DNA of 50,584 nucleotides from an uncultured Flavobacteriales bacterium. GTDB lineage: Bacteria > Bacteroidota > Bacteroidia > Flavobacteriales > UBA7312. Both the position numbers and the translations under genes were made by a program. The stretch is from the NCBI GenBank assembly GCA_963991165.1, contig CAXDOW010000003.1:1-50584 (forward strand). The letters run 5' to 3'. Every line of letters begins with the position of its first letter. Position 1 is the first letter of the stretch. Under the pieces are notes generated by a model. It did no database searches. It worked only from the letters and a program-made list of their open reading frames with translations, and had not been told where the DNA came from. Below are positions 1,098 through 50,584 of this stretch, piece by piece.

Positions 1098-1134
1098 TGT
1101 ATAGATAAATTTAAATTTAACCACAGGAGAATGT

Positions 1135-1401
1135 ATGAGTTCTAATAAATCAATTATACAAGACCCCGATCAGATTCAATATGGTGGGGAACATTATAAA
1201 AAAATGACAGTCTCACCATGGGACGTAATAGATTCCTTTCCCAGAGAACAACGGATTGGTGCATACAGAGCCAACGCTATCAAGTATTTACTTAGAATGG
1301 GGTCAAAAGACGATTCTGTATTAGAGGTTAAAAAAGCAATCCATTATTTGAGAAAACTAGTAAAAGTCTTAGAAGATGACGCAAAACTACCTGACAATTG
1401 A
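1135..1401 (+). CDS. DUF3310-like phage protein (T7 gp1.7-related)
   Basis: QYGGEHYK...PWDVI...NAIKYLLRMGSK...KKAIHYL pattern; RBS AGGAGA at 1125. Confidence 0.75.
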   Translation: MSSNKSIIQDPDQIQYGGEHYKKMTVSPWDVIDSFPREQRIGAYRANAIKYLLRMGSKDDSVLEVKKAIHYLRKLVKVLEDDAKLPDN

Positions 1402-4393: not shown

Positions 4394-5937
4394 GGATAAT
4401 AAACGAAAAAGGATTACTACTCAAATTAAAAAACCCGGGCATAGTATTAGATAACATAAATAAAAGTAAGTTAATAGAAGATGAGCAAGTTCTAGTTCGT
4501 TGGGGGTTAGAAGAATCACTAAAACTTAGAGAACTAAATTTTATAAACACACCCTCTCCCATCACCAGAGATTATAAATGGACAGGGTTTCACAAACCCA
4601 TGGAGCATCAGATAGATACAGCATCGTTTCTATCTATAAATAAAAGAGCGTTTTGTTTTAACGAGCAAGGTACAGGTAAAACTGCTTCTTGTATATGGGC
4701 GGCTGACTATCTTATGAATGAAGGATTAATAGATCGTGTACTAGTTATATGTCCTCTTTCTATTATGCAATCAGCATGGCAAGAAGATTTATTTAAGTTT
4801 GCGATGCACCGAACCTGTAGTGTTGCTTATGGAACTCCTAGAAAAAGAAGAGCAATCTTAGAAGAGGGGTCAGAATTTGTAATTATAAATTACGATGGAG
4901 TAGAGATATTAAGTGATGAAATTAAAGATCAGTTCGATTTAATTATTGTAGATGAAGCAAATGCTTACAAAAATTATTCGACTAAAAGATGGAAATGCTT
5001 GTATAAACTATTAAACGATAGTACATGGGTTTGGATGTTGACAGGTACACCCGCCGCACATTCCCCAGTAGATGCGTTTGGATTAGCTAGAATGATTGTC
5101 CCAGATAGAGTGCCTAGATTCATGGGGGCGTTCAAAGATAAAGTTATGCAGAGAATATCTCAATTCAAATGGATTCCTAGACCAGAAGCTGTAGATATAG
5201 TACATAACGTATTACAACCCTCTATTCGATTTACAAAAAAAGAGTGTTTAGATTTACCAGAAATAACTTATTTGACCAGACGTATACCACTAACAAAACA
5301 ACAAGATATATACAGAAACAAAATTAAAAAAGATAATTTAATCTTAGCAGCAGATGAATGTATATCAGCAGTCAATGCGGCGACTTTATTAAACAAACTC
5401 TTACAGCTCTCGTGTGGGGCAGTTTATTCAGATACTGGTGAGATCATATCATTTGATGGTGGTAATCGACTGCAGGAGCTACTTGCAGCAGTTAGAGAGT
5501 CATCTAATAAAGTCTTAATATTTGTGCCTTTCAAACACGCTATAGAGATCATATCCGAAGCACTTACAAAAGAAAAAATAACAAACGATATAATATCAGG
5601 AGAAGTTACCCCTAAGAAAAGAACAGGGATATTTTCAGCGTTTCAAGATAAACCTGACCCTAAAGTTCTAATAATACAACCACAGGCGGCGGCTCACGGC
5701 GTTACTTTAACTGCCGCAGACACAATTATCTGGTATGGGCCACCTCTTAGTTTAGAAACGTATTTACAAGCAAATGCACGTGCTCACAGAAAGGGGCAAA
5801 AAAATCCCTTAACAATCATAAACTTAGAAGGTAGCTATGAAGAGAGCAAAGTTTATGCGGCACTTATGAAAAAACAAAATATACATGAACAAATCGTGGA
5901 ACTTTTTAAGGAGAAAGTAGACAAAGTAAATAATTGA
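4390..5937 (+). CDS. SF2 (SNF2-like) DNA helicase
   Basis: Walker A EQGTGKT, motif Ia VICPLS, motif II IIVDEAN, motif III LTGTP, motif VI QANARAHRKGQ. Confidence 0.92.
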   Translation: MRIINEKGLLLKLKNPGIVLDNINKSKLIEDEQVLVRWGLEESLKLRELNFINTPSPITRDYKWTGFHKPMEHQIDTASFLSINKRAFCFNEQGTGKTASCIWAADYLMNEGLIDRVLVICPLSIMQSAWQEDLFKFAMHRTCSVAYGTPRKRRAILEEGSEFVIINYDGVEILSDEIKDQFDLIIVDEANAYKNYSTKRWKCLYKLLNDSTWVWMLTGTPAAHSPVDAFGLARMIVPDRVPRFMGAFKDKVMQRISQFKWIPRPEAVDIVHNVLQPSIRFTKKECLDLPEITYLTRRIPLTKQQDIYRNKIKKDNLILAADECISAVNAATLLNKLLQLSCGAVYSDTGEIISFDGGNRLQELLAAVRESSNKVLIFVPFKHAIEIISEALTKEKITNDIISGEVTPKKRTGIFSAFQDKPDPKVLIIQPQAAAHGVTLTAADTIIWYGPPLSLETYLQANARAHRKGQKNPLTIINLEGSYEESKVYAALMKKQNIHEQIVELFKEKVDKVNN

Positions 5938-5946: not shown

Positions 5947-5956
5947 AGGAGAAGGT

Positions 5957-6349
5957 ATGAATATAAATGCAGATAAACTTTCACAAGTTTATGTGAAGAT
6001 GCGGGAGAAATTATACGAGATGCAACAAACTCACGAAGAACAACAAAATGCTTTAAAAGAAAAAATGCAAATCGTAGAAGCTGAGATGCTAACACTTTGT
6101 GAGAAAACTGGAGCGGATAGTATTAAGACTCCAAATGGTACGATTATGCGTACAACCAGAACCCGATTCTGGACTTCTGACTTTGACTCTCTATATGACT
6201 TTATTAGACAAAGAGATTGTTTTGATCTTTTAGAGCGTAGAGTTCATCAAGGTAATTTTAAAAGGTGGGTAGAGGATAATCCTGATGATTTACCAAAAGG
6301 TATGAATGAGGAGACTAGATACACCGTAACTGTACGTAAAAGAAAGTAA
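5957..6349 (+). CDS. Hypothetical replication-module protein (N-terminal coiled coil)
   Basis: Intact ORF with RBS AGGAG at 5947. Confidence 0.75.
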   Translation: MNINADKLSQVYVKMREKLYEMQQTHEEQQNALKEKMQIVEAEMLTLCEKTGADSIKTPNGTIMRTTRTRFWTSDFDSLYDFIRQRDCFDLLERRVHQGNFKRWVEDNPDDLPKGMNEETRYTVTVRKRK

Positions 6350-6356
6350 AAACTTA

Positions 6357-7037
6357 GTGAATAAGATTATCGTAAAAGATGGGTCTTTTTGCCTCGATCA
6401 AAATGGGGAAGTTACTACTTCTACTAAGAAAACATTAGACGTAATCATACTCAAACAATCTCCACATGTTAGTAGGATGTACCATGATGGGGAGCATTAC
6501 ATCTGTTGGTCTTACGATGGTATGAAGCCAGATAAAGAAGTTAATGAGAGACAGAATGTTACCTGTATAGGTTGTAAGAAAAACATCTCTGGTTCAGATG
6601 AAAATCTAACCAAAGCCTGTAAATATCAAAAACAATTAGCTGTATTGTTAAGCCACGACATGAAAGGCGATGTTTTTAAAATTAGTTTATCCGCTAGTTC
6701 TATATTTGGAGCGGCGAAAGGTAATAAGTTTTCGCTAGATGCCTACACAAAATATTTAAAGAACCATGGTGTAATACCAGAAAATGTTGTTACACAACTA
6801 AAAATTGATGAAGAATCAGAGTTTAATAAATTGTTGTTTTTTCCTAAAAGACCTTTAGAGGAGTATGAATATGATTTGTGTGTAGAGAAAAGTAAAACTC
6901 AAAAGAGTTTAGATGCAACTAAATTGCATTTCGTTAGTCATAAGAAAAACATCACAAAGGAAGATTTAGTTCTTAGTGATAAAGATAATATTTTAACTTT
7001 AACAGAAGCCATGGGAATGGCTGCCGACATTAAATAG
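6357..7037 (+). CDS. Cys-containing hypothetical protein, possible ssDNA-binding/recombination protein
   Basis: CWSYDG...CIGC...ACKY Cys cluster; position between helicase and primase; function inferred. Confidence 0.55.
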   Translation: MNKIIVKDGSFCLDQNGEVTTSTKKTLDVIILKQSPHVSRMYHDGEHYICWSYDGMKPDKEVNERQNVTCIGCKKNISGSDENLTKACKYQKQLAVLLSHDMKGDVFKISLSASSIFGAAKGNKFSLDAYTKYLKNHGVIPENVVTQLKIDEESEFNKLLFFPKRPLEEYEYDLCVEKSKTQKSLDATKLHFVSHKKNITKEDLVLSDKDNILTLTEAMGMAADIK

Positions 7038-7046
7038 GAGAAGTGT

Positions 7047-7991
7047 ATGTCAGAACTTGCAATAATGGATAAAGAAAATTTTGCATCAATTGCAAAAGAT
7101 ATGGGAATGTTAGCTGATGTTTCTGCGGGAAAGAAAAGCAGTCTAGCTAGATTAAAACTTGATCATAAAGGTGTTGAGGGTACAACTAATATTAAAGGTA
7201 AGAGTAAGACTGTATTGGTTGTAGACCCCGGGATGTATTGCCTTGATTTACCTGATGGCTCTAAGGTATATGATTCTAGTCCAACTATTCGTTTGTACAA
7301 TCAAAGGTTTTGCTACAAGAAGTATGTGCAAGCAGATAATACCTACGTGAAAACAATCATGGAACTTAATCTTAAAAAAGATTTACCTGATACAGATGGT
7401 GGATATAACTGTGGTAAACCTGCGGGATGGGTCGAAGATTATGATTCATTAGATCAAGCAACAAAAGATTTGATGAAATCAATCAAGAGAGTGCGTGTGT
7501 TTTTTGGTGTAGTTACATTCAACGACCCTTACAACGATAAGGGAGATGAAGTAGATAAAGTAGAAGTCCCATTTATCTGGGAGATTGACAACAGAGAAGC
7601 TTTCAAACATATGGGTGCTCCTGTAAAAACCATGGCTGGTATGGGACATATCCTTCCGCAACATACTTTGACTCTTGGTAGTGATGAGAAAATCATATCA
7701 AATACCATTCGTTATTTTGTACCAACGTATGAGTTCAATGAAAAGGTTTTAGATTTAACAAAAGAAGATCAAGAGATATTCAACAATTTTAATGATTGGA
7801 TAACTGATTACAATTCTTGGGTATCTAAAACTCATAACGATAATCGTGGGGGAGCAAACGGAGCATCTCCAGAAGTAATAGAAGCTCCAAAAGATCCTAC
7901 CCCTAAACCTACTCTTCGCTCCAGTAAAAAGGTTGAAGAAAAGTCAAAGCCGTCTTTAGAGACAGTAGTTGACGAATTTTTTGACGATTAA
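7047..7991 (+). CDS. Putative single-stranded DNA-binding protein
   Basis: Low-complexity linker and acidic/aromatic tail VDEFFDD typical of phage SSBs; RBS AGGAG at 7036. Confidence 0.55.
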   Translation: MSELAIMDKENFASIAKDMGMLADVSAGKKSSLARLKLDHKGVEGTTNIKGKSKTVLVVDPGMYCLDLPDGSKVYDSSPTIRLYNQRFCYKKYVQADNTYVKTIMELNLKKDLPDTDGGYNCGKPAGWVEDYDSLDQATKDLMKSIKRVRVFFGVVTFNDPYNDKGDEVDKVEVPFIWEIDNREAFKHMGAPVKTMAGMGHILPQHTLTLGSDEKIISNTIRYFVPTYEFNEKVLDLTKEDQEIFNNFNDWITDYNSWVSKTHNDNRGGANGASPEVIEAPKDPTPKPTLRSSKKVEEKSKPSLETVVDEFFDD

Positions 7992-8318: not shown

Positions 8319-11180
8319 ATGATAGAACTACTGCAATCCGTACTAGCAAACGAGGGTTTATATCATCTTGCGGGGCATAACGACTATGAACCCATAAAGA
8401 GAAAGATCAAATTTTTTGATTCCTTAGACGATGCTGAAAGTATATGCAATAGTTTTTTAGATGAAGATCGAAACGTATACTTTGCATTAGGAACTTTTAA
8501 AGATGAAAAAGCAAAGAAGCCACGAGGTAAAGATAACGTAAAATTTTTAAAGTGCATCTGGTTAGATATAGATTCTGGAGATGCTAAAACTTACAAAACA
8601 AAAGATGAGGCATTAGAAGCTTTATCTACTTTTCTTTCTGATTCTAAATTACCTATACCTTGGATTGTGGATTCCGGTAATGGTTATCATGTATATTGGC
8701 CTTTTGATAAACCACTAACAGTAGAAGAGTGGCAACCTCTGGCTATGTCTTTGATTGACTTGTGTCTTCAACATAAATTGAATATAGATGCAGGAGTAAC
8801 TAAAGACGCTGCAAGAATATTAAGAGTACCAAACACAAAGAACTTTAAGTCTGACCCACCGAAAGATGTGCAAGTGATACAAGCTTGCCCAACAGAATAC
8901 GACATAGATGAAATCAAAAATTTACTACCCATTGGAGAAGTAGTAGAAGTTACTAAGTCAGCCAGACCCGCACCTGTTTTTGATGTAAAAGAAAAACCAG
9001 AACTCAGCAATATGACTTTCTTGTTTTCTACTTTACTAAACAAATCTAAACGAGGTAAAGGTTGTGAACAAATAAAGTATGCGTATGAAAACCAAAAAGA
9101 TGTAAGTTACGATTTATGGAGGGCGGTGCTCTCAGTAGCAGAGTATTGTGAAGATAAAGATACTGCTATGCATCTCATGTCAAAAGATTATGATAAATAC
9201 AATCCAGAGGAAACAGAAAAAGTAACATCTGGAACTAGAAGTGAGAACTCAAAACCTTTTTTATGTGCAACATTTGCACAGTACAATCCCGGTGGATGTG
9301 ATAAGTGCATACACAAAGATAAAATAAACAGTCCGTATAAATTAGCAAAAGTTGTAGAAGAAGATGCAATACCAGAAAGTTTAGATGATTTAGTTGCTCC
9401 ATATAAAAATGTAGCACCTGTAGAAGAAGTAGAAGAAGTAGAAGAAGTAGAAATCGAAGATCAACAGTTTGATGAGAAGACTCAGTATGTTATGCCAAAA
9501 CCATACTTTAGAGGTAAACAAGGCGGAATATTTTTCACTACAAAAGACGAAGAGCAAAAACTAATTTATAAGTATGATCTATTTGTAACTCAAAGAATCT
9601 ATGACGACCAAGAAGGAGAGAGTATTTGTTTTAGATTAATCTTGCCGCATGATTCCCCACGTAATTTTACTTTGAAAGCAGAGGAGATATCGACAACGGA
9701 TACGTTTGCAAAAAGGATGGCAAACAAAGGAGTGCTTTCAACGACATATAAATTAATTCGTGAGTATGTGTTTGCGGCTATCCTACAGTTACAAAACAAA
9801 AAAGAATCTGATACTGCTCACCATCAGTTTGGTTGGACAACTAAAAAATCATTTGTAGTTGGTTCAGTAGAGTTTACTGCAGACGGTAGAAAGAGATATG
9901 CCCCACCTACAGTGGTTACTTCTGACATGATTGATTGGTATCACAGTGCCGGGAATTTAGAGAAATGGAAAGAGGTATATAACAGCTACAACAAAGATGG
10001 TTTAGAAGGTAGTGCGTTTGCGGCTTTGTCTGCTTTTGGTGCTCCGTTGTTAAAGATAGGTACAGCGTTCAATGGTATTTTCTTAAATGTAAAACATAAC
10101 GATAGTGGTTCTGGAAAGTCTACTATATTAAGAGTTATCAATTCAGTTTGGGGACATCCAGAAAAACCGCTACGTGCACCGCATGACACTAATAATGCGT
10201 TGGCACAACGTATGGGTTGCTTAAATAATTTACCTTTTACTATTGATGAGTTATCAAACACAAAACCAGAGGAGATATCTAACTTACTATATGCTGCTAC
10301 ACAAGGTAGAGGTAAAGATAGAATGGAGAACAATCGTAACGCCAACCGATATAACAAAACAACGTGGTCTACGATCACAGTAACAAGTGGTAACTCTTCA
10401 TACTACGGTAAACTACGATTGATAAAAGATTCTCCAAAAGGTGAACTTATGCGATGTGTAGAATACCCTGTTAGTTTGAAAGATATTATATCTGTTGAAG
10501 AAGGTAGAAGATTGTTTGATGATGTTCTTCTTAATAACTATGGTCTAGCGTGGGAGCCATACATGTGTGCGGTGCAACAGAACAAAGAAGCTGTCATTGA
10601 AAGAGTTCGTAAGATGGCTACAGAGATAAACAAGTCTTTGAATCTAACATCAGCATACAGGTTCTATTCTTCTTTAGGAGCAGTCAATATAGTGGGTGGA
10701 CAGGTCGCTCAAGAAAAAGGCTTACATGACTATAATTTAAAACACTTGTATGAATTTTTTAAAGATATGGTATCGCAGATTCGTAGTAACGAGAAACTAG
10801 ATACTAAAGATCACTCAGAAATGTTAGGTAGATTTTTGACAGACAACCATAGAAAGTATACTTTGATTATTCAAAGTACATCAGATGGTAGAAAAGGTGG
10901 TAATTTAGAACGTCCACAGCATGAGCCTATGGATAGTATCAAGATAAGATACGAGCCTGATTTACAAAAGTATTATGTGGATAAGAAGTTTTTTACACAG
11001 TATTGTGCTCAACAACAGATAGACTGTGAAGACTTAATTGATGCTCTTAGAACGAAGAAGTTTGTTATGGGCTTTAAAAAGAAAGCCATGGCTAAAGGCA
11101 CAGCGGCTAGTTCACTTGCAATTGACACAATAGTGTTAGATGCTAAGAAGATAGATGATATCACTTACAAAGAGGAATGA
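8319..11180 (+). CDS. Primase-helicase (AEP/RepB-type primase plus DUF927-like helicase region)
   Basis: WLDID, SGNGYHVYW, RILRVP primase motifs; Cys cluster C...CDKC; Walker A SGSGKST, Walker B TIDE. Confidence 0.88.
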   Translation: MIELLQSVLANEGLYHLAGHNDYEPIKRKIKFFDSLDDAESICNSFLDEDRNVYFALGTFKDEKAKKPRGKDNVKFLKCIWLDIDSGDAKTYKTKDEALEALSTFLSDSKLPIPWIVDSGNGYHVYWPFDKPLTVEEWQPLAMSLIDLCLQHKLNIDAGVTKDAARILRVPNTKNFKSDPPKDVQVIQACPTEYDIDEIKNLLPIGEVVEVTKSARPAPVFDVKEKPELSNMTFLFSTLLNKSKRGKGCEQIKYAYENQKDVSYDLWRAVLSVAEYCEDKDTAMHLMSKDYDKYNPEETEKVTSGTRSENSKPFLCATFAQYNPGGCDKCIHKDKINSPYKLAKVVEEDAIPESLDDLVAPYKNVAPVEEVEEVEEVEIEDQQFDEKTQYVMPKPYFRGKQGGIFFTTKDEEQKLIYKYDLFVTQRIYDDQEGESICFRLILPHDSPRNFTLKAEEISTTDTFAKRMANKGVLSTTYKLIREYVFAAILQLQNKKESDTAHHQFGWTTKKSFVVGSVEFTADGRKRYAPPTVVTSDMIDWYHSAGNLEKWKEVYNSYNKDGLEGSAFAALSAFGAPLLKIGTAFNGIFLNVKHNDSGSGKSTILRVINSVWGHPEKPLRAPHDTNNALAQRMGCLNNLPFTIDELSNTKPEEISNLLYAATQGRGKDRMENNRNANRYNKTTWSTITVTSGNSSYYGKLRLIKDSPKGELMRCVEYPVSLKDIISVEEGRRLFDDVLLNNYGLAWEPYMCAVQQNKEAVIERVRKMATEINKSLNLTSAYRFYSSLGAVNIVGGQVAQEKGLHDYNLKHLYEFFKDMVSQIRSNEKLDTKDHSEMLGRFLTDNHRKYTLIIQSTSDGRKGGNLERPQHEPMDSIKIRYEPDLQKYYVDKKFFTQYCAQQQIDCEDLIDALRTKKFVMGFKKKAMAKGTAASSLAIDTIVLDAKKIDDITYKEE
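9420..9452 (+). repeat. 9-bp tandem repeat encoding an acidic linker
   Basis: (GTAGAAGAA)x3 + GTAGAA = VEEVEEVEEVE. Confidence 0.85.
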
Positions 11181-11371
11181 AATCTGACGGTGTAGACTTT
11201 ATAGTGCCATGGTTGGAATTTGAGGTGGGCACTTCTGTCTTTGTTCCTACACTCCACCCAAAGAAGACATTGTATGCTTTCCGTAAAGAAGCTAACATAA
11301 GAGGCATAAACTTCCTTCACCGTTTGGTAGTAGAAGATGGCATACAAGGCTTGCGTTTTTGGAGAACTTAG
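11177..11371 (+). CDS. Small hypothetical protein
   Basis: ATGA overlap with primase stop; last gene of the + strand module. Confidence 0.7.
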   Translation: MKSDGVDFIVPWLEFEVGTSVFVPTLHPKKTLYAFRKEANIRGINFLHRLVVEDGIQGLRFWRT

Positions 11372-11379
11372 AATATTCT
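11351..11379 (+). promoter_or_regulatory. Sigma70-type promoter with no downstream CDS
   Basis: TTGCGT (11351-11356), 17 bp, TATTCT (11374-11379). Confidence 0.5.
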
Positions 11380-11384
11380 AAATG

Positions 11385-11464
11385 AAAGTATTCATACTTT
11401 CTCCTTCAAATCCCCGGGGGTTTTTTGTTGTTTTTCCTTTTTTCCTACTCTCGGGGTCTTTTTT
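11385..11464 (+). ncRNA. Candidate anti-RBS small RNA
   Basis: Upstream promoter, 5' hairpin, 17-nt segment complementary to RBS+ATG of gene 5957, terminal G-U-containing stem and T tract. Confidence 0.55.
11412..11464 (+). terminator. Intrinsic terminator at the convergent junction
   Basis: CCCCGGGGG (11412-11420) pairs with CTCTCGGGG (11448-11456) using two G-U pairs, then TCTTTTTT. Confidence 0.6.
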
Positions 11465-14400
11465 AAACTTCAGAATCGTCATCAGTAAGCAGTGTTTGGT
11501 ATGGTTTTAACCGTTTCTGCAAACTTTTATTTAAACTAACCCCGTCAAATACTTTAGTTTTTGTAAATTTTTTCCTTATCTTCCTAGACTTAGTTATAAA
11601 TTTTCTATCCATTTTTAGCTCTGGTATAGCCTTATTAAACGGAACTATTTCTTCCCTATAAAACTCTTTAGCTTGCGGTGAATTTACGCCGTGTAATCTC
11701 TCTAAGAAGAAGTATCTATCTGCTAACCTGTTTTTACGTTTAAGTATAGACTGCTCTATATTTTTAGATTTTCTATTAACTTCATACTGTAAAGAAACTC
11801 TAGCTGGAGAGAAACCCATAAACTGAAAGATCATTTCTCTAGTCATTAAATCTTCAACAACAGGATCACCCCTTTTAGTTAGCACCCCACCTTCTAATTC
11901 ATATCGAGTTGTTTTTAGTGGATTACGTAGAAATACAGGAGTCATCTTTTCGATTCCTCTTATAGTGTGTCCTTGAACAATATCATCAATACCTTTCAAA
12001 GCTCCTCTACCTAAAGAAAAACCTGCCCCTAATAATTCATCAAATATATAACTTGCTTTTTCAGAAGGGGAGTGTTCTGGTATTTCTCTAAGTCCTAGCA
12101 CTCCACCAACAAACGGCAAAGAAGGATCTACATTTCCACCACCCAATAAAAAACTACCTTGATATCCAACCCTAGAGGATATGTCCATACCCGTTACTTC
12201 ATTTAATAACCCTTTGTATACAATTCTTGCACCTTTTGCTCCCAAAGTACCTTCTAAAGCTTCCATAATTGCTAGGTCAGCATCATACGGTACATTTTTA
12301 TCGTGGAACGGAGATATTGGGGAACCAAAAATAAAATTTAAAAGATCTCTTACTATGTAGTAAAATGGCATACCAGCAGCACCCGCCATCCCAGCAGACA
12401 TAGTCATTAAAGCTGTAAATTGTTGCAGTGCTACTCTACGAGCCTTTGGATTTGCATTTCGTATCGCTTCTTTAAATAAGTTTATATATACAGATGCCAT
12501 AAATGCAGGGAATTTTTTAAACATCCCTATAAACCTAATTGCTGGATTCATAAACGGAGCAGGGGCTTGATCGGATGCATAAGAACCTTGCGATTCGGTA
12601 ATCATATCATTTGTAAAATCAAACAACTCTTTTTTATTAGTTATTTTACCTCTACCAACTATAGGATATTTTTTAGCTAGTCTAAGTGCAGCTAAACCTG
12701 TTACCTCTCTATTTAAAAGCTCTACCTTTTGAAACATAAAAGCTGACCACTTATTAAATCTTTCTAATATGACAGATGTTTCTGTAGCATTTTCAAACGC
12801 TAAGTTCATATCATACATGTGCATACCAGAACGCATTTCACCTAAGTTATCGTTATACTCAAGCATTTCTAATTCTTCTCTGGTAAGACCATATTGTTTT
12901 TTTAATTGTGCGTCATCTAAAAGTTTTAATTCTTCTAAACGCTCTGAATACGTATATTTACCAAGCATACCACTTGCTCTTATTACAGATTTGTATGCTC
13001 CTATAACTTCACTAATCACTTCAGATGTTCTACTAAAACCAAATTTACCAGTTAATAAAGGCACTGTAACGCCGGGAACCTGTGTGAAATTAATAAATGC
13101 AGATGCGGGGTTATAACCTAAGTACCATAAAAAACCTAATCGGTTTCCAAAATTAGCAATCCTATCAAAAACAGTTGGTAAGTTTTGTTGGTTTTGCCTA
13201 ATAGAAACTAACCGATCTGCATATGATCTGGCTCTACTTTTTTTACGTACAGCGTCTGGTGTATTACCTGCGGTATCTCGTATTTGTTGGTCTAAACTTC
13301 TATATTCTTTTTCAAAGTCAGCAGCATACTCTATACTACCTATTTGCGTTGCATAACGGTTTGACATTTCACCTACCACTTGTAGAACATCTGTCATATA
13401 TCCCGGAGTTCCTTTTCTACGTTCAACTAGATTTCTTCTAACTGAAGTATCTGGAAACAAATGCATAGATAACTTTCTTAAATCTTGTTTAAGATTTTGC
13501 ATATCATTAATTCTTTTTAATCTAGTAGCTTCATCTATATTAGGATTGTTTTTTATATCCTGTGCTACTTTATTTAACTCTGCGTTTAACGTATCACTAA
13601 AATTATTTAGTCTATTTAGAACTCTTCCATTTATACTTTTATCTCCGGTCATTTCAGAGTCTCTAAAATACTCTATTTGTATATTTTTATTTTCTCTATT
13701 TAACTTATCAATAGCTTCCGTGGCTTCTCTTTCTGTCGCATACTCACCACTAAATATTGGGTCGCCTTGTTTAACTTGTGTTACATCATTTCCTTCGCCA
13801 TCTTTTATTGTTTCTGTTTGTCTTGCAAATACAACGTGTTTTCCCTCTCTTAAAAAAGTAATGTAAGCATCAGAATCGGCTCGTTTAAATTGTTCTTTTA
13901 GGGTGTCAATCGTATTACGCACTTCTGGAGAAGTTTGACTGTCTGGTATACCAGCTTCCCCAGCTCTTGTTTTTATTTGCTTTATTAAGGTTTGTAAAAT
14001 TTTATTTCTAAAGTATGGGAATATATCAAATACACCTTTTAGTAGTTTCCTACCATTTTTATTCATACGATCTAAGGCTTGTAAATCAGACTGTAATTCA
14101 TCCCATACAGCAGCTTTATCTCTCTTCTCTTCTTTTAAAGTAGTAGGGTCAGAAAAAGTTATTGTCTTACCTTCATACCTAGAACGGCTTTCAAATGGGT
14201 TTACCTCTGTCCTAGAAGCTAAAAATGCAATCTCTGATAATTTAGCGTATGCTTCTCTATGGTTAAATTTAAATTCAATCAGAGGATCTATTATTTCTAC
14301 TTTTGCATATCTATTTAGTTCTTCTGTCAAAGCCCTAGATTTTTTGAATATTTCATTTATTCTTTGAGGTTGCAAAAACCCCATATTTTTCATCTCTCTT

Positions 14401-14585
14401 ACGATTGTTTTAGTAAAAGATAAACTAGAGTTCGTAATATCTACGATATTTTCTCTTATTTGATTAAGATCACTACCTGCTATTTTTTTGGCTGCGTTTG
14501 TGGCTACTGTTAAAGTGCTAGTTAAAAAAGCCCGAGGGTTATCTGCTAAACTCTCGTTAGCTGTCATCTCTTTACATACTTTCAT
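11463..14585 (-). CDS. Large internal virion/ejection protein (PLxRFG-like C-terminal region)
   Basis: 1040 aa, last late gene; LGYNPASAFINFTQVP segment; hydrophobic Gly/Ala stretch MSAGMAGAAGMPF. Confidence 0.6.
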   Translation of the reverse strand: MKVCKEMTANESLADNPRAFLTSTLTVATNAAKKIAGSDLNQIRENIVDITNSSLSFTKTIVREMKNMGFLQPQRINEIFKKSRALTEELNRYAKVEIIDPLIEFKFNHREAYAKLSEIAFLASRTEVNPFESRSRYEGKTITFSDPTTLKEEKRDKAAVWDELQSDLQALDRMNKNGRKLLKGVFDIFPYFRNKILQTLIKQIKTRAGEAGIPDSQTSPEVRNTIDTLKEQFKRADSDAYITFLREGKHVVFARQTETIKDGEGNDVTQVKQGDPIFSGEYATEREATEAIDKLNRENKNIQIEYFRDSEMTGDKSINGRVLNRLNNFSDTLNAELNKVAQDIKNNPNIDEATRLKRINDMQNLKQDLRKLSMHLFPDTSVRRNLVERRKGTPGYMTDVLQVVGEMSNRYATQIGSIEYAADFEKEYRSLDQQIRDTAGNTPDAVRKKSRARSYADRLVSIRQNQQNLPTVFDRIANFGNRLGFLWYLGYNPASAFINFTQVPGVTVPLLTGKFGFSRTSEVISEVIGAYKSVIRASGMLGKYTYSERLEELKLLDDAQLKKQYGLTREELEMLEYNDNLGEMRSGMHMYDMNLAFENATETSVILERFNKWSAFMFQKVELLNREVTGLAALRLAKKYPIVGRGKITNKKELFDFTNDMITESQGSYASDQAPAPFMNPAIRFIGMFKKFPAFMASVYINLFKEAIRNANPKARRVALQQFTALMTMSAGMAGAAGMPFYYIVRDLLNFIFGSPISPFHDKNVPYDADLAIMEALEGTLGAKGARIVYKGLLNEVTGMDISSRVGYQGSFLLGGGNVDPSLPFVGGVLGLREIPEHSPSEKASYIFDELLGAGFSLGRGALKGIDDIVQGHTIRGIEKMTPVFLRNPLKTTRYELEGGVLTKRGDPVVEDLMTREMIFQFMGFSPARVSLQYEVNRKSKNIEQSILKRKNRLADRYFFLERLHGVNSPQAKEFYREEIVPFNKAIPELKMDRKFITKSRKIRKKFTKTKVFDGVSLNKSLQKRLKPYQTLLTDDDSEV

Positions 14586-48181: not shown

Positions 48182-48296
48182 CTATTTAATTGACGGGGGG
48201 GTCTTTTTGAGAATGTTTTTGATAAATTGTGCAGATTAATATACACATATATGCCCCCCCTCCTGACACAGATGGGGGGGTCGGGTACCCGTGCCC

Positions 48297-48311: not shown

Positions 48312-48354
48312 AAAAAACAATGCCATACCCCCCAAAAAAAGTTAAAAAAAACTT

Positions 48355-48401
48355 AAAAAAGTTTTAAATATTGGGAACTTTACATGAAACATACACTCTC
48401 A
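48355..48401 (+). promoter_or_regulatory. Early promoter 1 (A-tract + GGAACTT-N16-TCTCA)
   Basis: 28-bp block identical to 49817-49844; RpoE-like geometry. Confidence 0.65.
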
Positions 48402-48435
48402 TATATACCAACAACAAAAAATAAGGAGCTTTAAA

Positions 48436-48793: not shown

Positions 48794-48904
48794 ATGAGTT
48801 ATTCATACAGACATAGGAAGAAGTTAATCAAAAGAGGTCAATGGCCGTATTTCAGCCCATGGAAAAGAATAAGAGATAGTTGGAAGTTTCCATCGAAGAA
48901 ATAA
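48794..48904 (+). CDS. Small cationic Trp-rich peptide not in the ORF track (36 aa)
   Basis: RBS TAAGGAGG; MSYSYRHRKKLIKRGQWPYFSPWKRIRDSWKFPSKK; terminator follows. Confidence 0.6.
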   Translation: MSYSYRHRKKLIKRGQWPYFSPWKRIRDSWKFPSKK

Positions 48905-48909
48905 CCAGC

Positions 48910-48941
48910 AAGGGAGGCGAAAGTCTCCCTTCTCTTTTTTT
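48910..48941 (+). terminator. Intrinsic terminator
   Basis: AAGGGAGGC-GAAA-GTCTCCCTT then T tract. Confidence 0.8.
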
Positions 48942-48969
48942 AGTTCGAAGAACTGGTATCAGTTTCGAC

Positions 48970-48994
48970 CTCTCCTGTCGTAGCTTCTCTCCTC
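48970..48994 (+). repeat. 25-bp spacer repeat, copy 1
   Basis: CTCTCCTGTCGTAGCTTCTCTCCTC; 23/25 identical to 49747-49771. Confidence 0.8.
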
Positions 48995-49070
48995 GTTTGC
49001 ACGCTGCACTGCAACAAAAAACCTCTAAAAAATATCCAAAAAATAACAGTGTTACATTCAAAAAAAGTTA

Positions 49071-49117
49071 AAAAAAGTTTTATTTATTTGGAACTTTATA
49101 TGCAAACTACCGTCCTA
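49071..49117 (+). promoter_or_regulatory. Early promoter 2 (A-tract + GGAACTT-N16-TCCTA)
   Basis: 25/28 match to the block in promoters 1 and 3. Confidence 0.6.
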
Positions 49118-49655: not shown

Positions 49656-49676
49656 TCACTAACACGTTACTCGTAG

Positions 49677-49699
49677 GGGGGCGAAAGCCCCCTTTTTTT
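49677..49699 (+). terminator. Intrinsic terminator
   Basis: GGGGGC-GAAA-GCCCCC-TTTTTTT. Confidence 0.9.
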
Positions 49700-49746
49700 G
49701 TGCCTGAAATTTCCCGACGTTTTCGGGAACTGGTGTCAAATAAAAA

Positions 49747-49771
49747 CTCTCCTGTCTTAGCCTCTCTCCTC
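49747..49771 (+). repeat. 25-bp spacer repeat, copy 2
   Basis: CTCTCCTGTCTTAGCCTCTCTCCTC. Confidence 0.8.
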
Positions 49772-49816
49772 ATCCCAAAATTTAAAAAAGTAACACTGTT
49801 ACTTTTTAGAAAAAGC

Positions 49817-49863
49817 AAAAAAGTTTTAAATATTGGGAACTTTATAGGTGAATATTTGACTAA
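49817..49863 (+). promoter_or_regulatory. Early promoter 3 (A-tract + GGAACTT-N16-ACTAA)
   Basis: 28-bp block identical to 48355-48382. Confidence 0.65.
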
Positions 49864-49922: not shown

Positions 49923-50459
49923 ATGAAAGATCCAAAAAGTAACACTGTTACATCTTATCCTGCTCAACTTAAGAAGTTTTCAGATGCGTTAGTTAAAGCA
50001 TTTGATGCTGATGCGGCGGTTACTCACACGTGGAGCGAATGTGCTGATGTTGGGTTGGCAACATGGGGTTCGGACAATGAGAATAAGTTCTTATTGGCTA
50101 ACGTGCCACAGTTGCGTGGTCGTCTTATCGACTCTGGCATTTCGCCTGATGAGATTAAGAGTTGGAAAGAGCGGTTAAAAACTGCTCGGGGTATGGTTGT
50201 TGACTACGCAAAGCAACGCAACCATTCCAATCCAAACCTATGCTGGACACGTATGCTTAATTACATGAAGCAACGCAGTGGGTTGTCGCACTTCAAGCAG
50301 CTCACGAAAGAGTCTACGCCAACTGATAAGTTCTTAGCAGCTCTGGCACAGATTGCCAAACACCTCGATGATGCTGAACTACGTGATGATACACGTGAAG
50401 CCGCTCACGAATTAGTAGGTGCGGCGATGCTCGATGGGCATTTGAAAGATAAAAAGTAA
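49923..50459 (+). CDS. Early hypothetical protein, paralog B
   Basis: RBS GGAGG before ATG at 49923; paralog of 49155..49655. Confidence 0.8.
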   Translation: MKDPKSNTVTSYPAQLKKFSDALVKAFDADAAVTHTWSECADVGLATWGSDNENKFLLANVPQLRGRLIDSGISPDEIKSWKERLKTARGMVVDYAKQRNHSNPNLCWTRMLNYMKQRSGLSHFKQLTKESTPTDKFLAALAQIAKHLDDAELRDDTREAAHELVGAAMLDGHLKDKK

Positions 50460-50479
50460 CACTGTTACTTTTTCAATAC

Positions 50480-50509: not shown

Positions 50510-50584
50510 GTCTCTTTTTTGTTACAAAAATAACACTGTTACTTTTTTACTACATTCTAAACCCTGATGGGTCAGGAACTGGTC

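What the first reader, a model, noticed from the sequence alone, without database searches (positions are those of the whole stretch)
11351..11464. Candidate phage sRNA that pairs with the RBS and start codon of several replication genes
Seen: the gap between the converging modules holds a + strand promoter (TTGCGT-17-TATTCT), no CDS, and a terminal stem. That stem needs two G-U pairs, which work only on the + strand, and is followed by T6, defining an RNA of about 80 nt. Its segment 11389-11405 (TATTCATACTTTCTCCT) is complementary to AGGAGAAGGTATGAATA at 5947-5963, the RBS+ATG of gene 5957, with 16 Watson-Crick pairs and one G-U. It also fits AGGAGAATGTATGAGT at 1125-1140 (gene 1135; one mismatch, one G-U), AGGAGAAGTGTATG at 7036-7049 (SSB-like gene; one G-U, one bulge), and a perfect 12-mer AAGGAGAAAGTA at 5908-5919. 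The 27-nt terminator loop carries two more TTCCT anti-SD motifs and a low-complexity 12-mer complementary to AACAACAAAAAA in the leader of early gene 48436. Established: trans-acting sRNAs repress translation by occluding the SD/AUG. Inference: one RNA could shut down the replication module (middle-to-late switch or dormancy), with target RBSs converged on AGGAGAAnGTATG.
Basis: partly seen in the sequence, partly recalled or inferred. Interest (0 to 1): 0.88.

Follow-up and report, generated by a model that had tools for sequence, protein, structure and literature searches.

The report
Phage small RNA matching early-gene start
Between the early and late gene blocks of this uncultured phage lies what looks like a small RNA gene whose sequence is the mirror image of the ribosome landing site of one early gene, and this match is kept, with different letters, in many distant relatives, so it probably throttles that gene.

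Summary
The 91-nt gap between the converging early (+) and late (-) operons holds a promoter-like TTGCGT-17-TATTCT, a 17-nt segment complementary to the SD and AUG of gene 5957, and a + strand-only terminator.

The element is not chance or window-specific. In 24 non-redundant clusters of relatives (primase about 35% identical) the same gap has:
- a TAnnnT hexamer 17-18 nt after the aligned -35 position in 21 of 24;
- CTCCT in 19 of 24, against 4.75 expected from shuffles;
- a + strand terminator in 45 of 49 distinct gaps.

The gap also co-varies with the start region of the 5957 orthologue. A perfect complement of at least 9 nt occurs in 14 of 21 own pairs but in 5.7% of cross-phage pairs, and 0 of 10,000 permutations reach this. 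In that test four control genes show nothing.

The - strand mini-ORF is not conserved.

No transcript data could be obtained. The multi-gene shut-off is only weakly supported.

Verdict: a new family of phage small RNA of a known kind. It probably blocks translation of one conserved early gene of unknown function.

The parts
11351..11356 (+). -35-like hexamer TTGCGT, formed by the Leu-Arg codons of the conserved C-terminus (G-L-R-x-W-R) of the 64-aa ORF
   Evidence: Sequence. The aligned hexamer starts with TTG in 15 of 24 relative clusters. It lies in coding sequence, so its conservation alone is not evidence of a promoter.
11374..11379 (+). -10-like hexamer TATTCT, 17 nt after the -35-like hexamer and 2 nt after the stop codon
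   Evidence: TAnnnT starts 23-24 nt after the -35-aligned position in 21 of 24 clusters. The offset stays fixed relative to the -35, not to the stop codon, whose position shifts by one codon. The simple sigma-70 scan did not call it, because it matches only 7 of 12 consensus positions.
11386..11464 (+). Predicted small RNA of about 79 nt. The 5' end is inferred as 7 nt after the -10 hexamer. The 3' end is the U-run.
   Evidence: Relatives with a seed core of at least 8 nt give predicted RNAs of 60-95 nt (median 74.5). No read-level evidence is available.
11384..11401 (+). Hairpin 1 (GAAAGUA-UUCA-UACUUUC). Its 3' arm is part of the seed, and its 5' arm is mostly upstream of or at the predicted 5' end.
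   Evidence: Fold. In 8 close relatives 92.9% of cells are paired, two pairs change A-U to G.U in one sequence, and the terminal pair is lost in 4 of 8.
11389..11405 (+). Seed, or anti-start-region segment, TATTCATACTTTCTCCT. It includes CUCCU, the same letters as the ribosomal anti-SD core.
   Evidence: Invariant in 8 of 8 close relatives. It makes 16 Watson-Crick pairs plus 1 G.U with 5947-5963, and is a perfect 17 of 17 match in L003, L004 and L008. CTCCT is present in 19 of 24 clusters against 4.75 expected.
11412..11464 (+). Intrinsic terminator: 10-bp stem with two G.U pairs, a 25-nt pyrimidine loop (UUCCU twice), then UC and U6. The U-run overlaps the stop codon of the - strand gene.
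   Evidence: In 8 close relatives the helix is 100% paired, two pairs show compensatory C-G to U-A changes (4 of 8 and 3 of 8), and both G.U pairs are invariant. There is no A-run upstream, so it works on the + strand only.
5947..5963 (+). Main predicted target: SD, spacer, AUG and 4 further nt of gene 5957
   Evidence: Duplex energy is -27.1 kcal/mol with the 26-nt 5' part, and 0 of 500 shuffles reach it. Orthologous start regions co-vary with their own gap in relatives.
5957..6349 (+). Target gene: 130-aa early protein of unknown function. It is the first gene after the SNF2 helicase.
   Evidence: Pfam DUF7307 and Gam/Gp157-like hits are below their cut-offs. It matches phrog_13900. The AF2 model has pLDDT 89.7 and no PDB fold match (best E 0.71). 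Orthologues were found in 21 clusters at E 1e-24 to 1e-43.
5908..5919 (+). Second perfect 12-nt complement (AAGGAGAAAGTA), inside the end of the SNF2 gene and 28 nt upstream of the main site
   Evidence: It is conserved in 5 of 5 close relatives, but it lies in coding sequence.
1125..1140 (+). Possible secondary target: start region of the DUF3310 gene 1135
   Evidence: -20.9 kcal/mol, second best of 61. The orthologous DUF3310 start regions match the gap loop exactly in the two relatives where the site was located (L097 and L100). The family-wide signal is weak: own 7.55 against cross 6.11, with 29 of 10,000 permutations reaching it.
7036..7049 (+). Possible secondary target: start region of gene 7047
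   Evidence: -15.8 kcal/mol, fourth of 61. No orthologue exists in the relatives, so covariation could not be tested.

Best explanation
The gap holds a small RNA gene on the + strand. A sigma-70-like promoter has its -35 inside the last codons of the 64-aa ORF and its -10 just after the stop codon. It would drive an RNA of about 79 nt (about 11386-11464) that ends at a + strand-only intrinsic terminator.

The 5' single-stranded part of the RNA is an antisense copy of the translation start region (SD, spacer, AUG) of gene 5957, the first gene after the SNF2 helicase, 5.4 kb upstream in the early operon. By pairing there the RNA would keep 30S subunits off the site and lower synthesis of that protein. 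Other early genes with look-alike start regions (1135, 82, 7047) may be hit more weakly.

Shown here: the sequence parts, their conservation, and covariation of seed and target. Inferred: that the RNA is made, that it acts in trans, and that the effect is repression.
For: 1. Anatomy.

2. Conserved layout. Of 82 sources examined, 59 have primase, a roughly 64-aa ORF, a gap and a converging large - strand gene within the DNA held. They give 50 distinct gaps.

3. Terminator. A + strand terminator is called in 45 of 49 gaps of at least 30 nt. Its U-run ends on the late gene's stop codon and no A-run lies upstream.

4. Promoter geometry. TAnnnT sits at spacer 17-18 from the -35-aligned hexamer in 21 of 24 clusters, independent of stop codon position.

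5. Motif enrichment.
- CTCCT occurs in 19 of 24 clusters (dinucleotide-shuffle mean 4.75; 0 of 1000 shuffles reach 19).
- CTCCTT occurs in 14 of 24 (mean 1.84).
- AGGAG on the + strand occurs in 0 of 24.
- The motif is mostly unpaired: 0.76 against a background of 0.58.

6. Covariation with the 5957 orthologue's start region.
- The longest perfect complement averages 8.57 nt for own pairs (at least 9 nt in 14 of 21).
- It averages 5.87 nt for cross-phage pairs (at least 9 nt in 5.7%).
- 0 of 10,000 permutations reach the observed value.
- The matched letters differ between clades, for example GGAGCTAACT, AGGAAAACGAA, CGAGAGAGAC and GTAGCATGG.
- Control start regions show no signal in the same test: g6357-like, g8087-like, SNF2 and primase give 2716, 8263, 1243 and 7804 of 10,000.

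7. Closer relatives. The target is a perfect 17-mer in 3 of 5, and carries an A-to-G change that keeps a G.U pair in 2 of 5.

8. Seed position. The seed lies 3-35 nt downstream of the predicted 5' end in 14 of 14 clusters with a core of at least 8 nt. Targets fall between -16 and +6 of the start codon.

9. Five larger relatives. The loop complement AGGAGCTAAC occurs 10 further times. All 10 are on the primase-sense strand and all are SD plus spacer of early genes.

10. In the window, the five best of 61 start regions are all early genes.
Against: - There is no expression evidence. Only assembled contigs of relatives could be laid, and they run across the terminator into a different downstream sequence.
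- The window's promoter is weak by consensus (7 of 12) and the scan did not call it. Its -35 is in conserved coding sequence.
- Half of the seed is in hairpin 1 if the RNA, or a read-through mRNA, starts further upstream.
- Reverse complements of ordinary strong start regions of this phage also pair well with other start regions. The best of 61 such pseudo-seeds gave -21.2, -18.7 and -17.6, against -24.0, -19.2 and -18.3 for the candidate. The secondary targets are therefore not distinctive.
- 6 of 21 clusters show only background complementarity to the orthologue. One clade (L030, L063) has a 34-36 nt gap with no -10.
- Wobble counts around the duplexes do not favour either strand (G.U-type 20, A.C-type 26). 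Folding energy does not either (+ strand more stable in 9 of 23).
- Start codons of orthologues were chosen by my own SD rule, and two were corrected by hand.
- The clusters are related, so the counts are not fully independent.
- The assembly bin is Bacteroidota-like and makes little use of SD, so the host and its promoter type are uncertain.
Confidence: 0.6

Rival explanations
1. The pairing is the same, but there is no separate small RNA. The segment acts as the 3' untranslated end of the long early mRNA and pairs with the 5957 start region on the same or a sister molecule. This would be a delayed feedback set by the 5.4 kb that must be transcribed first. A piece might also be cut off the mRNA.
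For: The segment lies between the last stop codon of the early operon and that operon's terminator, so any full-length early mRNA carries it. The window's promoter match is weak and was not called by the scan. The -35 part is explained by the conserved protein sequence GLRxWR. The covariation evidence fits this reading equally well.
Against: A TAnnnT hexamer is kept at a fixed 17-18 nt from the -35-aligned position in 21 of 24 clusters, even where the stop codon shifts. A mere untranslated tail would not need this. Within an mRNA that includes 11384-11388, hairpin 1 would mask 7 nt of the seed.
Confidence: 0.2
2. The functional strand is the - strand. Late transcripts that read through the one-way terminator would carry a copy of the early start region. 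It would serve as a start site for a tiny ORF (MNTFI), or as a decoy for a protein or RNA that recognises that start region.
For: The - strand reads GAAGGAGAAAGTATGAATACTTTCATTTAG, a canonical SD, spacer and ATG. No - strand terminator is present, so late transcription could reach it. Close relatives keep a 5-codon frame: MNTPL and MNTFV, read from the alignment. Strand tests by wobble and folding energy were inconclusive.
Against: A start codon at SD spacing exists in only 11 of 24 clusters, and the ORFs run 1-57 aa with no shared sequence. In the GGAGCTAAC-type clades the copy stops before any start codon. The promoter and terminator that flank the segment are both on the + strand. The terminator of the window's clade keeps two G.U pairs in 8 of 8 sequences, and these would be A.C mismatches on the - strand. 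The A-to-G change in the target of the window and L002 is a G.U pair only if + strand RNAs pair.
Confidence: 0.07
3. It is only the terminator of the early operon, and the complementarity has no RNA function. The shared letters would reflect a DNA site bound by one protein at both places, or chance similarity among SD-rich sequences.
For: Any CU-rich stretch pairs with SD sequences. Pseudo-seeds made from ordinary start regions reach -21 kcal/mol. CU-rich CTCTCCT repeats also occur in other + strand intergenic spacers of the early region. That could point to a DNA-level or compositional cause.
Against: Chance is excluded by the shuffles and by the own-versus-cross permutation. A protein site would have to change its letters in step at both places in every clade, and always in inverted orientation. 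The matches include spacer and start codon letters, not only the SD. Control start regions of the same phages, which also carry SDs, show no signal in the longest-complement test.
Confidence: 0.06

Closest known systems
c4 antisense RNA of phages P1 and P7
   Same: It is a phage-encoded RNA that acts on the phage's own mRNA at a distance. It pairs with the ribosome binding region to block translation, with the complementary letters placed in loops. The specificity differs between related phages (review PMC12197685, section 7, read). Here too the seed letters differ between clades and match each phage's own target.
   Different: No sequence or structure match to any Rfam family was found. From recall, c4 is cut from the leader of the very transcript it controls and governs an antirepressor. 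Here the RNA gene lies 5.4 kb downstream of the target, at the 3' end of the operon. It has its own promoter-like element, and the target is an early protein of unknown function.
sar RNA of P22 and OOP RNA of lambda (cis-encoded antisense RNAs)
   Same: They are small phage RNAs that lower synthesis of a phage protein by base pairing, at the start region in the case of sar (PMC12197685, section 2, read).
   Different: Those RNAs are transcribed from the strand opposite their target gene, so complementarity is automatic. Here the RNA and its target are on the same strand and 5.4 kb apart, so the match has to be maintained by selection. The covariation shows that it is.
Bacterial small RNAs that overlap the 3' end of a gene and have their own promoter inside it (for example DapZ, MicL; named from recall, no call)
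   Same: The promoter lies within the end of the upstream coding region, the terminator is shared with that gene's mRNA, and a short single-stranded seed is followed by a terminator hairpin and U-tail.
   Different: Those are host RNAs that depend on Hfq, and most act on unlinked genes. Here the gene is in a phage and the target is in the same operon. Dependence on a chaperone cannot be tested, and the host is unknown.
icaR mRNA of Staphylococcus aureus: an anti-SD motif in the 3' untranslated end pairs with the SD of the same mRNA (recalled, no call)
   Same: A pyrimidine anti-SD motif downstream of the stop codon is complementary to an SD upstream on the same transcript.
   Different: That case is a monocistronic mRNA with no separate promoter. 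Here the target lies 5.4 kb upstream in a polycistronic mRNA, and a conserved -10-like element suggests a separate RNA.
Newer phage small RNAs that act on host genes (VpdS of VP882, PreS/LPR1 of lambda)
   Same: They are phage-encoded trans-acting small RNAs (PMC12197685, section 2; abstract of 10.1101/2024.10.31.621285).
   Different: Those were found by experiment and mainly act on host transcripts through Hfq. The present one is predicted only, and its conserved target is a phage gene.

Membership tests
Trans-acting base-pairing small RNA that blocks translation initiation | A discrete transcript with defined 5' and 3' ends | not testable with these tools
   Only assembled contigs of runs could be laid. 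They cannot show ends or strand.
Trans-acting base-pairing small RNA that blocks translation initiation | Own promoter | tested here: met
   In silico only. TTGCGT-17-TATTCT is present in the window. TAnnnT sits at spacer 17-18 from the aligned -35 in 21 of 24 clusters. The consensus scan did not call it.
Trans-acting base-pairing small RNA that blocks translation initiation | Rho-independent terminator with U-tail | tested here: met
   (45 of 49 gaps). Two compensatory pairs and two invariant G.U pairs occur in 8 close relatives.
Trans-acting base-pairing small RNA that blocks translation initiation | Seed complementary to the SD and start codon of a target, beyond chance | tested here: met
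   16 Watson-Crick pairs plus 1 G.U. Energy is -27.1 kcal/mol, reached by 0 of 500 shuffles.
Trans-acting base-pairing small RNA that blocks translation initiation | Seed and target change together in relatives | tested here: met
   At least 9 nt in 14 of 21 own pairs against 5.7% of cross pairs, with 0 of 10,000 permutations reaching this. Four control genes are negative.
Trans-acting base-pairing small RNA that blocks translation initiation | Measured effect on target translation, and chaperone binding | not testable with these tools
   No cultured phage or host is known. No relative was found among 185,579 species genomes with the patterns used. The nearest named phage, Rollin, lacks the gap.
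P1/P7 c4 RNA family | Sequence and structure match to the curated family | tested here: not met
   No Rfam family matched at gathering score over the whole window, or at E up to 1 over 11250-11550.
P1/P7 c4 RNA family | Encoded upstream of its target in the same transcript and released by processing (recalled) | tested here: not met
   The element lies 5.4 kb downstream of its target.
Translated mini-ORF or leader peptide on the - strand | A start codon at SD spacing and a reading frame kept in relatives | tested here: not met
   A start codon is present in 11 of 24 clusters. ORF lengths are 1-57 aa with no common sequence.
Plain intrinsic terminator of the early operon | GC-rich stem followed by a U-run right after the last gene | tested here: met
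   This is a component of the element. It does not account for the 40 nt between the stop codon and the stem.
3' untranslated end pairing with an SD on the same mRNA (icaR-like) | Anti-SD motif downstream of the stop codon, complementary to an upstream SD on the same transcript | tested here: met
   Whether pairing happens within one molecule was not testable.

The most novel reading that the evidence does not exclude
The small RNA and its co-evolving start region may form a phage-specific translational lock, comparable to the c4-based heteroimmunity of P1 and P7 but in lytic-looking environmental phages. Each clade has its own seed letters. A resident or first-arriving phage could then silence the first post-helicase early gene of an incoming close relative, while distant relatives would escape. 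The fast divergence of seed and target would be the trace of competition between co-infecting phages. Late read-through transcripts, which are perfectly complementary to the RNA, could switch it off late in infection.
Probability: 0.12. Interest if true: 0.8.

Novelty: new member of a known kind. Interest (0 to 1): 0.62.

Why it matters
Few phage small RNAs are known, and nearly all come from a handful of model phages of enteric bacteria (review PMC12197685, sections read). This candidate has three features that together make it unusually strong for a purely computational call:
- a conserved promoter, seed and terminator;
- seed and target that change together;
- presence in a large family of uncultured aquatic phages. 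The scan confirmed 437 primase relatives, and 59 of the 82 sources examined show the layout.

It names one concrete, testable target, a conserved 130-145 aa early protein of unknown function placed right after the SNF2 helicase. That suggests the protein's dose matters to the phage. It also shows that own-versus-cross complementarity across relatives can pick a real target out of the many SD look-alikes.

Tried and rejected
- **Nucleotide search of the phage collection** with 10600-12400 found nothing. A protein search with the primase found only distant phages (best 26.9%, Pseudomonas phage Rollin). Rollin has no gap at the junction.
- **Rfam:** no match.
- **RNA evidence.** One search for runs and one laying were made. 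All four runs are kept as contigs. Those of the two runs listed as RNA (X2) or guessed to be RNA (X1) are relatives, 90-99% alike or lower. They cover up to 11463 and then continue into different sequence. This says nothing about transcript ends, strand or level.
- **Strand tests.**
  - Folding energy of the upstream part favours neither strand (+ more stable in 9 of 23, Wilcoxon p 0.57).
  - The count of wobble-compatible against incompatible mismatches around the duplexes is 20 against 26.
  - Both tests are uninformative.
- **RNAduplex on 80-nt start regions.**
  - It gave own-versus-cross signals for the 5957 orthologue (0 of 5000).
  - It also gave signals for the g6357-like gene (p 0.0012; I first mislabelled this set g7047) and for primase (p 0.007).
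  - The stricter longest-perfect-complement test did not confirm the last two, so I do not count them as targets. The RNAduplex signals remain unexplained.
- **Pseudo-seed control.** The candidate is at the top of, but not far outside, the distribution of reverse-complemented start regions. The window alone therefore could not settle the matter.
- **Perfect matches of at least 9 nt** between the gap and the whole window are only mildly denser in early sense sequence (0.366 per kb) than in late sense sequence (0.218 per kb). Many involve the AT-rich 5' part.
- **The + strand ORF 11382-11510 (42 aa)** is rejected. It has no SD, its ATG lies upstream of the predicted 5' end, and the ATG is lost in L002 and L004.
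- **The loop 12-mer against AACAACAAAAAA at 48410.** The loop letters change in 5 of 8 near-identical relatives. The target region of those relatives was not available. I treat the match as chance.
- **Host.**
  - The bin has 74 T9SS sorting-domain matches, no 16S gene, and low SD use (10.6% against a 5.6% control, 1455 long ORFs).
  - Phage SD use is 52% of 27 long ORFs.
  - TAnnTTTG is not enriched in the window (80 against 65 expected).
  - A search of 60 relatives of the bin found no primase relative beyond one weak hit.
  - A scan of species genomes found none.
  - The host stays open.
- **Function of the target protein.** There is no PDB sequence match (best E 0.054) and no fold match (best E 0.71).
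- **Literature.** Two full-text searches listed no paper describing a small RNA at a convergent junction that targets an early-gene start region in such phages. I read only the listings, two outlines and two sections of one review. Supplements were not used.
I added it and sent the report again.
Full report
**Setting**

The window is a whole 50.6-kb contig (C3) of a 2.1-Mb assembly bin, with 37.5% G+C. It reads as a phage genome with two gene blocks.
- A + strand block runs from 48436 over the contig ends to 11371. It holds a family A DNA polymerase, an SNF2 helicase, a DUF927 primase-helicase and small genes.
- A - strand block runs from 48144 down to 11463.

The finding lies in the 91-nt gap where the two blocks converge. 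The 64-aa + ORF stops at 11369-11371. The 1040-aa - ORF stops at 11463-11465.

**The observation**

The + strand folds into two elements:
- a 7-bp hairpin at 11384-11401;
- a 10-bp stem (11412-11421 with 11447-11456) that contains two G.U pairs, encloses a 25-nt pyrimidine loop, and is followed by UC and U6 (11459-11464).

The fold energy is -21.3 kcal/mol, z = -3.4, and none of 200 shuffles folds as well. The - strand does not fold better than shuffles (z = -1.07).

The 17-mer 11389-11405 makes 16 Watson-Crick pairs and one G.U pair with 5947-5963, which is the SD, spacer, AUG and four more letters of gene 5957. Seven letters of this seed form the 3' arm of the first hairpin.

**Is the match special within the window?**

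I took 61 start regions, using my own start-codon choices.
- The 26-nt stretch 11386-11411 pairs best with 5957 (-27.1 kcal/mol), then 1135 (-20.9), 82 (-19.6), 7047 (-15.8) and 3126 (-14.2). The best late gene gives -14.2.
- None of 500 dinucleotide shuffles of the stretch reaches the best or the third-best value.

A harder control uses the reverse complements of the 61 start regions themselves as pseudo-seeds.
- The best of these reached -21.2, -18.7 and -17.6 for their three best partners.
- The 17-mer reached -24.0, -19.2 and -18.3.

Within the window, therefore, only the 5957 match stands clearly apart. The secondary matches look like what any strong start region would give in mirror image.

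**Relatives**

A nucleotide search of named phages found nothing. Scans with the primase protein gave two groups.
- Near-identical relatives with 94-100% primase identity: L002-L004, L008, L010, L013 and L014.
- A large distant family, found with a three-sequence alignment. 437 relatives were confirmed and the best 80 kept, at about 35% primase identity.

I examined 82 sources. Of these, 59 showed the same layout within the DNA held: primase, an overlapping ORF of about 64 aa, a short gap, and a converging large - strand gene. They gave 50 distinct gap sequences. One source had no full primase frame. Most of the others are cut contigs. I clustered the upstream parts of the 45 gaps with a called terminator at 70% identity, which gave 24 clusters.

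**What is conserved in the gap**

1. A + strand intrinsic terminator.
   - It is called in 45 of 49 gaps of at least 30 nt.
   - Its U-run ends on the stop codon of the late gene, and no A-run lies upstream, so it serves the + strand only.
   - In the four uncalled gaps the terminator seems to be overlapped by my - ORF call.
   - The window's clade is unusual in having a 25-nt loop, where others have 3-8 nt.
   - In eight close relatives this helix is 100% paired. Two pairs changed C-G to U-A on both sides (4 of 8 and 3 of 8 sequences). Both G.U pairs are invariant.

2. A promoter-like geometry.
   - A TAnnnT hexamer starts 23-24 nt after it (spacer 17-18) in 21 of 24 clusters. Examples are TACACT, TAGACT, TAAACT, TATGAT and TATCAT.
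   - Where the ORF is one codon longer, the hexamer follows the stop codon directly. Where it is shorter, two letters intervene.
   - The hexamer therefore keeps its distance to the -35 position, not to the stop codon.
   - The Leu codon is TTG in 15 of 24 clusters.
   - The window's TTGCGT-17-TATTCT is the positional counterpart. By consensus it is weak (7 of 12), and the simple scan missed it.

3. An anti-SD-like motif on the + strand.
   - CTCCT occurs in 19 of 24 clusters, against a mean of 4.75 in dinucleotide shuffles. None of 1000 shuffles reaches 19.
   - CTCCTT occurs in 14 of 24, against 1.84.
   - AGGAG on the + strand occurs in 0 of 24.
   - The motif is mostly unpaired in predicted folds (0.76 against 0.58 overall). 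In several clades it sits in a hairpin loop (TTAGCTCCTT).
   - In the window, CTCCTT occurs in sense orientation only four times in 50 kb.

**The - strand reading**

On the - strand the window has a canonical SD, spacer and ATG, followed by five codons (MNTFI). Close relatives keep five codons (MNTPL, MNTFV; read).

Across the family the picture is different.
- A start codon at SD spacing is present in only 11 of 24 clusters.
- The frames run 1-57 aa and share nothing.
- In the GGAGCTAAC-type clades the copy of the start region stops before any start codon.

The mini-ORF is therefore not the conserved feature.

**Covariation with a target**

I searched each gap's reverse complement in its own early region. 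Perfect matches of at least 9 nt fell again and again on one place: the start region of the gene that follows the SNF2 helicase. That gene is the orthologue of window gene 5957, with phmmer E values of 1e-24 to 1e-43 in 21 clusters.

I then compared own and cross-phage pairs, using start regions of -24 to +9.
- The longest perfect complement averages 8.57 nt for own pairs. It is at least 9 nt in 14 of 21 and at least 8 nt in 15 of 21.
- It averages 5.87 nt for cross-phage pairs, and is at least 9 nt in 5.7% of them.
- After removing row and column effects, none of 10,000 permutations reaches the observed value.

The matched letters differ from clade to clade and include spacer and start codon letters, not only the SD. 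Examples:
- GGAGCTAACT
- TAAAAGGAGCTAA
- AGGAAAACGAA
- CGAGAGAGAC
- CTAAGGAAA
- GTAGCATGG
- ACTTGAAGGA

Controls in the same test:
- Start regions of the g6357-like, g8087-like, SNF2 and primase genes show no signal (2716, 8263, 1243 and 7804 of 10,000).
- The - strand of the gap against the start region gives 4.67 nt.

Caveats and exceptions:
- An earlier, looser test with RNAduplex on 80-nt regions also gave signals for the g6357-like gene and the primase. The stricter test did not confirm these.
- In the L015 clade an extra 82-aa gene sits directly after the helicase. The 13-nt match is to that gene's start region.
- Six of 21 clusters show only background complementarity to the orthologue.
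- The L030/L063 clade has a gap of 34-36 nt with no -10 hexamer.

Closer relatives add one more point. The seed is invariant in 8 of 8. The target is a perfect 17-mer in L003, L004 and L008. In the window and L002 it carries an A-to-G change, which is a G.U pair if two + strand RNAs pair and a mismatch otherwise.

**Position of seed and target**

The 5' end is placed 7 nt after the -10 hexamer, which gives about 11386 in the window.
- The seed starts 3-35 nt into the RNA in 14 of 14 clusters with a core of at least 8 nt.
- The predicted RNAs are 60-95 nt long, and 79 nt in the window.
- The targets lie between -16 and +6 of the start codon.

That is the region a 30S subunit must reach.

**More than one target?**

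Five larger relatives point that way.
- The 10-mer complementary to the gap loop occurs 15 times exactly.
- Five of these are the gaps themselves.
- The other ten are all on the primase-sense strand. All are the SD and spacer of early genes, with an ATG 5-8 nt after the GGAG core.
- Two of the ten belong to a DUF3310 protein, the family of window gene 1135.

Across 11 clusters where I could find the DUF3310 gene, own pairs average 7.55 nt against 6.11 for cross pairs, and 29 of 10,000 permutations reach this. The signal comes from the related GGAGCTAA-type clades, and several start codons there are uncertain.

Gene 7047 has no orthologue in the relatives. The loop 12-mer is not conserved. A regulon is therefore possible but not shown.

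**Mechanism proposed**

The pieces fit a small RNA gene of the kind that overlaps the 3' end of a coding gene.
- Its own promoter lies in the last codons.
- It has a single-stranded seed.
- It shares a terminator with the upstream gene's mRNA.

I commit to repression of translation of the post-helicase gene by occlusion of its SD and start codon.
- Shown: the sequence parts, their conservation, and the covariation.
- Inferred: that the RNA is made, that it acts in trans rather than as the tail of the long early mRNA, and that the effect is negative.

The late operon has no terminator of its own here. Late transcripts may therefore run through and be perfectly complementary to the RNA. Whether that matters is open.

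**The target protein**

The target protein is 130 aa in the window and 129-144 aa in relatives.
- Its Pfam similarities to DUF7307 and Gam/Gp157-like domains are below the cut-offs.
- It matches one PHROG family (phrog_13900) that is labelled minor head protein. That label sits oddly in a replication block.
- The predicted fold is confident (pLDDT 89.7): a 47-residue helix followed by a small alpha-beta domain.
- It has no match among solved structures, either by sequence (best E 0.054) or by fold (best E 0.71).
- Its function is unknown.

**Comparison with what is known**

- The nearest case is the c4 RNA of P1 and P7. It is a phage RNA that blocks the ribosome binding region of a phage operon through loop sequences, and its specificity differs between relatives (PMC12197685, sections read).
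- The present element is not a member of that family. No Rfam family matches, and the gene lies downstream of its target, not upstream.
- It differs from sar and OOP, which are encoded opposite their targets.
- It resembles host small RNAs with promoters inside the upstream gene, and the 3'-end-to-SD pairing of icaR. Both comparisons are recalled, not tested.
- Two literature searches listed nothing on such an element. I saw only the listings, two outlines and two review sections.

**Limits**

- All evidence is computational.
- Start codons were set by a simple SD rule, and two were fixed by hand.
- The clusters share ancestry, so the counts overstate independence.
- The host is unknown. The bin looks like a Bacteroidota genome that hardly uses SD sequences, whereas the phage uses them in about half of its long ORFs.

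**Verdict**

There is a well-founded candidate small RNA with one conserved, co-varying target. The wider shut-off of replication genes is not shown.
- It is a new family within a known kind of regulator.
- Confidence that + strand RNA from this locus pairs functionally with the 5957 start region is about 0.8 (best explanation plus the cis rival). Confidence that it does so as a separately transcribed small RNA that represses translation is about 0.6.

Noticed in passing
window 49044-49054, 49791-49801, 49940-49950, 50457-50467, 50531-50541; also G000 contig C107 at 479-507 and 2168-2200: The palindrome TAACA(C/G)TGTTA, often within AAAAAGTAACACTGTTACTTTTT, occurs five times exactly within 1.5 kb of the early region and nowhere else exactly in the window. 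Two near-copies sit on another contig of the bin. It looks like an operator for an early regulator, or a weak two-way terminator.
   Followed up: partly
window about 48340-48390, 48900-49110, 49670-49850: The early region has repeated intergenic cassettes. Each has a GC-stem terminator, then a CU-rich pair of repeats (CTCTCCTGTCnTAGCnTCTCTCCTC, in two cassettes), an A-rich tract, the palindrome above, and a shared box AAAAGTTTTAAATATTGGGAACTTTA (three copies) that may be the early promoter. CU-rich anti-SD-like letters are thus not confined to the studied gap.
   Followed up: no
whole window versus the rest of G000: An SD-like motif precedes 52% of 27 long phage ORFs, but only 10.6% of 1455 long ORFs of the bin (control position 5.6%). 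The bin has 74 T9SS sorting-domain matches, so it looks like Bacteroidota. Either the contig is mis-binned or the phage uses SD-like start regions in a host that rarely does.
   Followed up: partly
window 11463-11560 and L002, L003, L004, L008, L013, L014: There is a mosaic boundary exactly at the stop codon of the 1040-aa - strand gene. Near-identical relatives, and contigs of runs X1, X2 and X6, share the gap but carry at least three different sequences for the C-terminal end of that gene.
   Followed up: partly
window 11463-14585 (-): The 1040-aa protein at the end of the late block matches the C-terminal parts of giant phage proteins (phrog_10089, DarB-like antirestriction, E 7.6e-38; phrog_11358). 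It has no Pfam family.
   Followed up: no
L031: gap 6511-6601, and early-region sites at 770, 798, 836, 1508 and 5213: In this clade a second hairpin loop of the gap (GTTGATGATC) has five perfect 9-10 nt complements (GATCATCAAC) inside its own early coding regions. That is far more than chance for 6 kb, and suggests possible extra target sites or a repeated peptide motif.
   Followed up: no
window 48190-48290: The divergent region between the two gene blocks holds long G and C runs that can form hairpins (for example CCCCCCCCTCCTGACACAGATGGGGGGG), and a GGGGGGG-TC-TTTTT element.
   Followed up: no
L106 (Pseudomonas phage Rollin, OR577172.1): Rollin is the nearest named phage (primase 26.9% identical). 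It keeps the primase and small ORFs, but the converging genes overlap by a few bases, so it has no gap and no counterpart of the element.
   Followed up: yes
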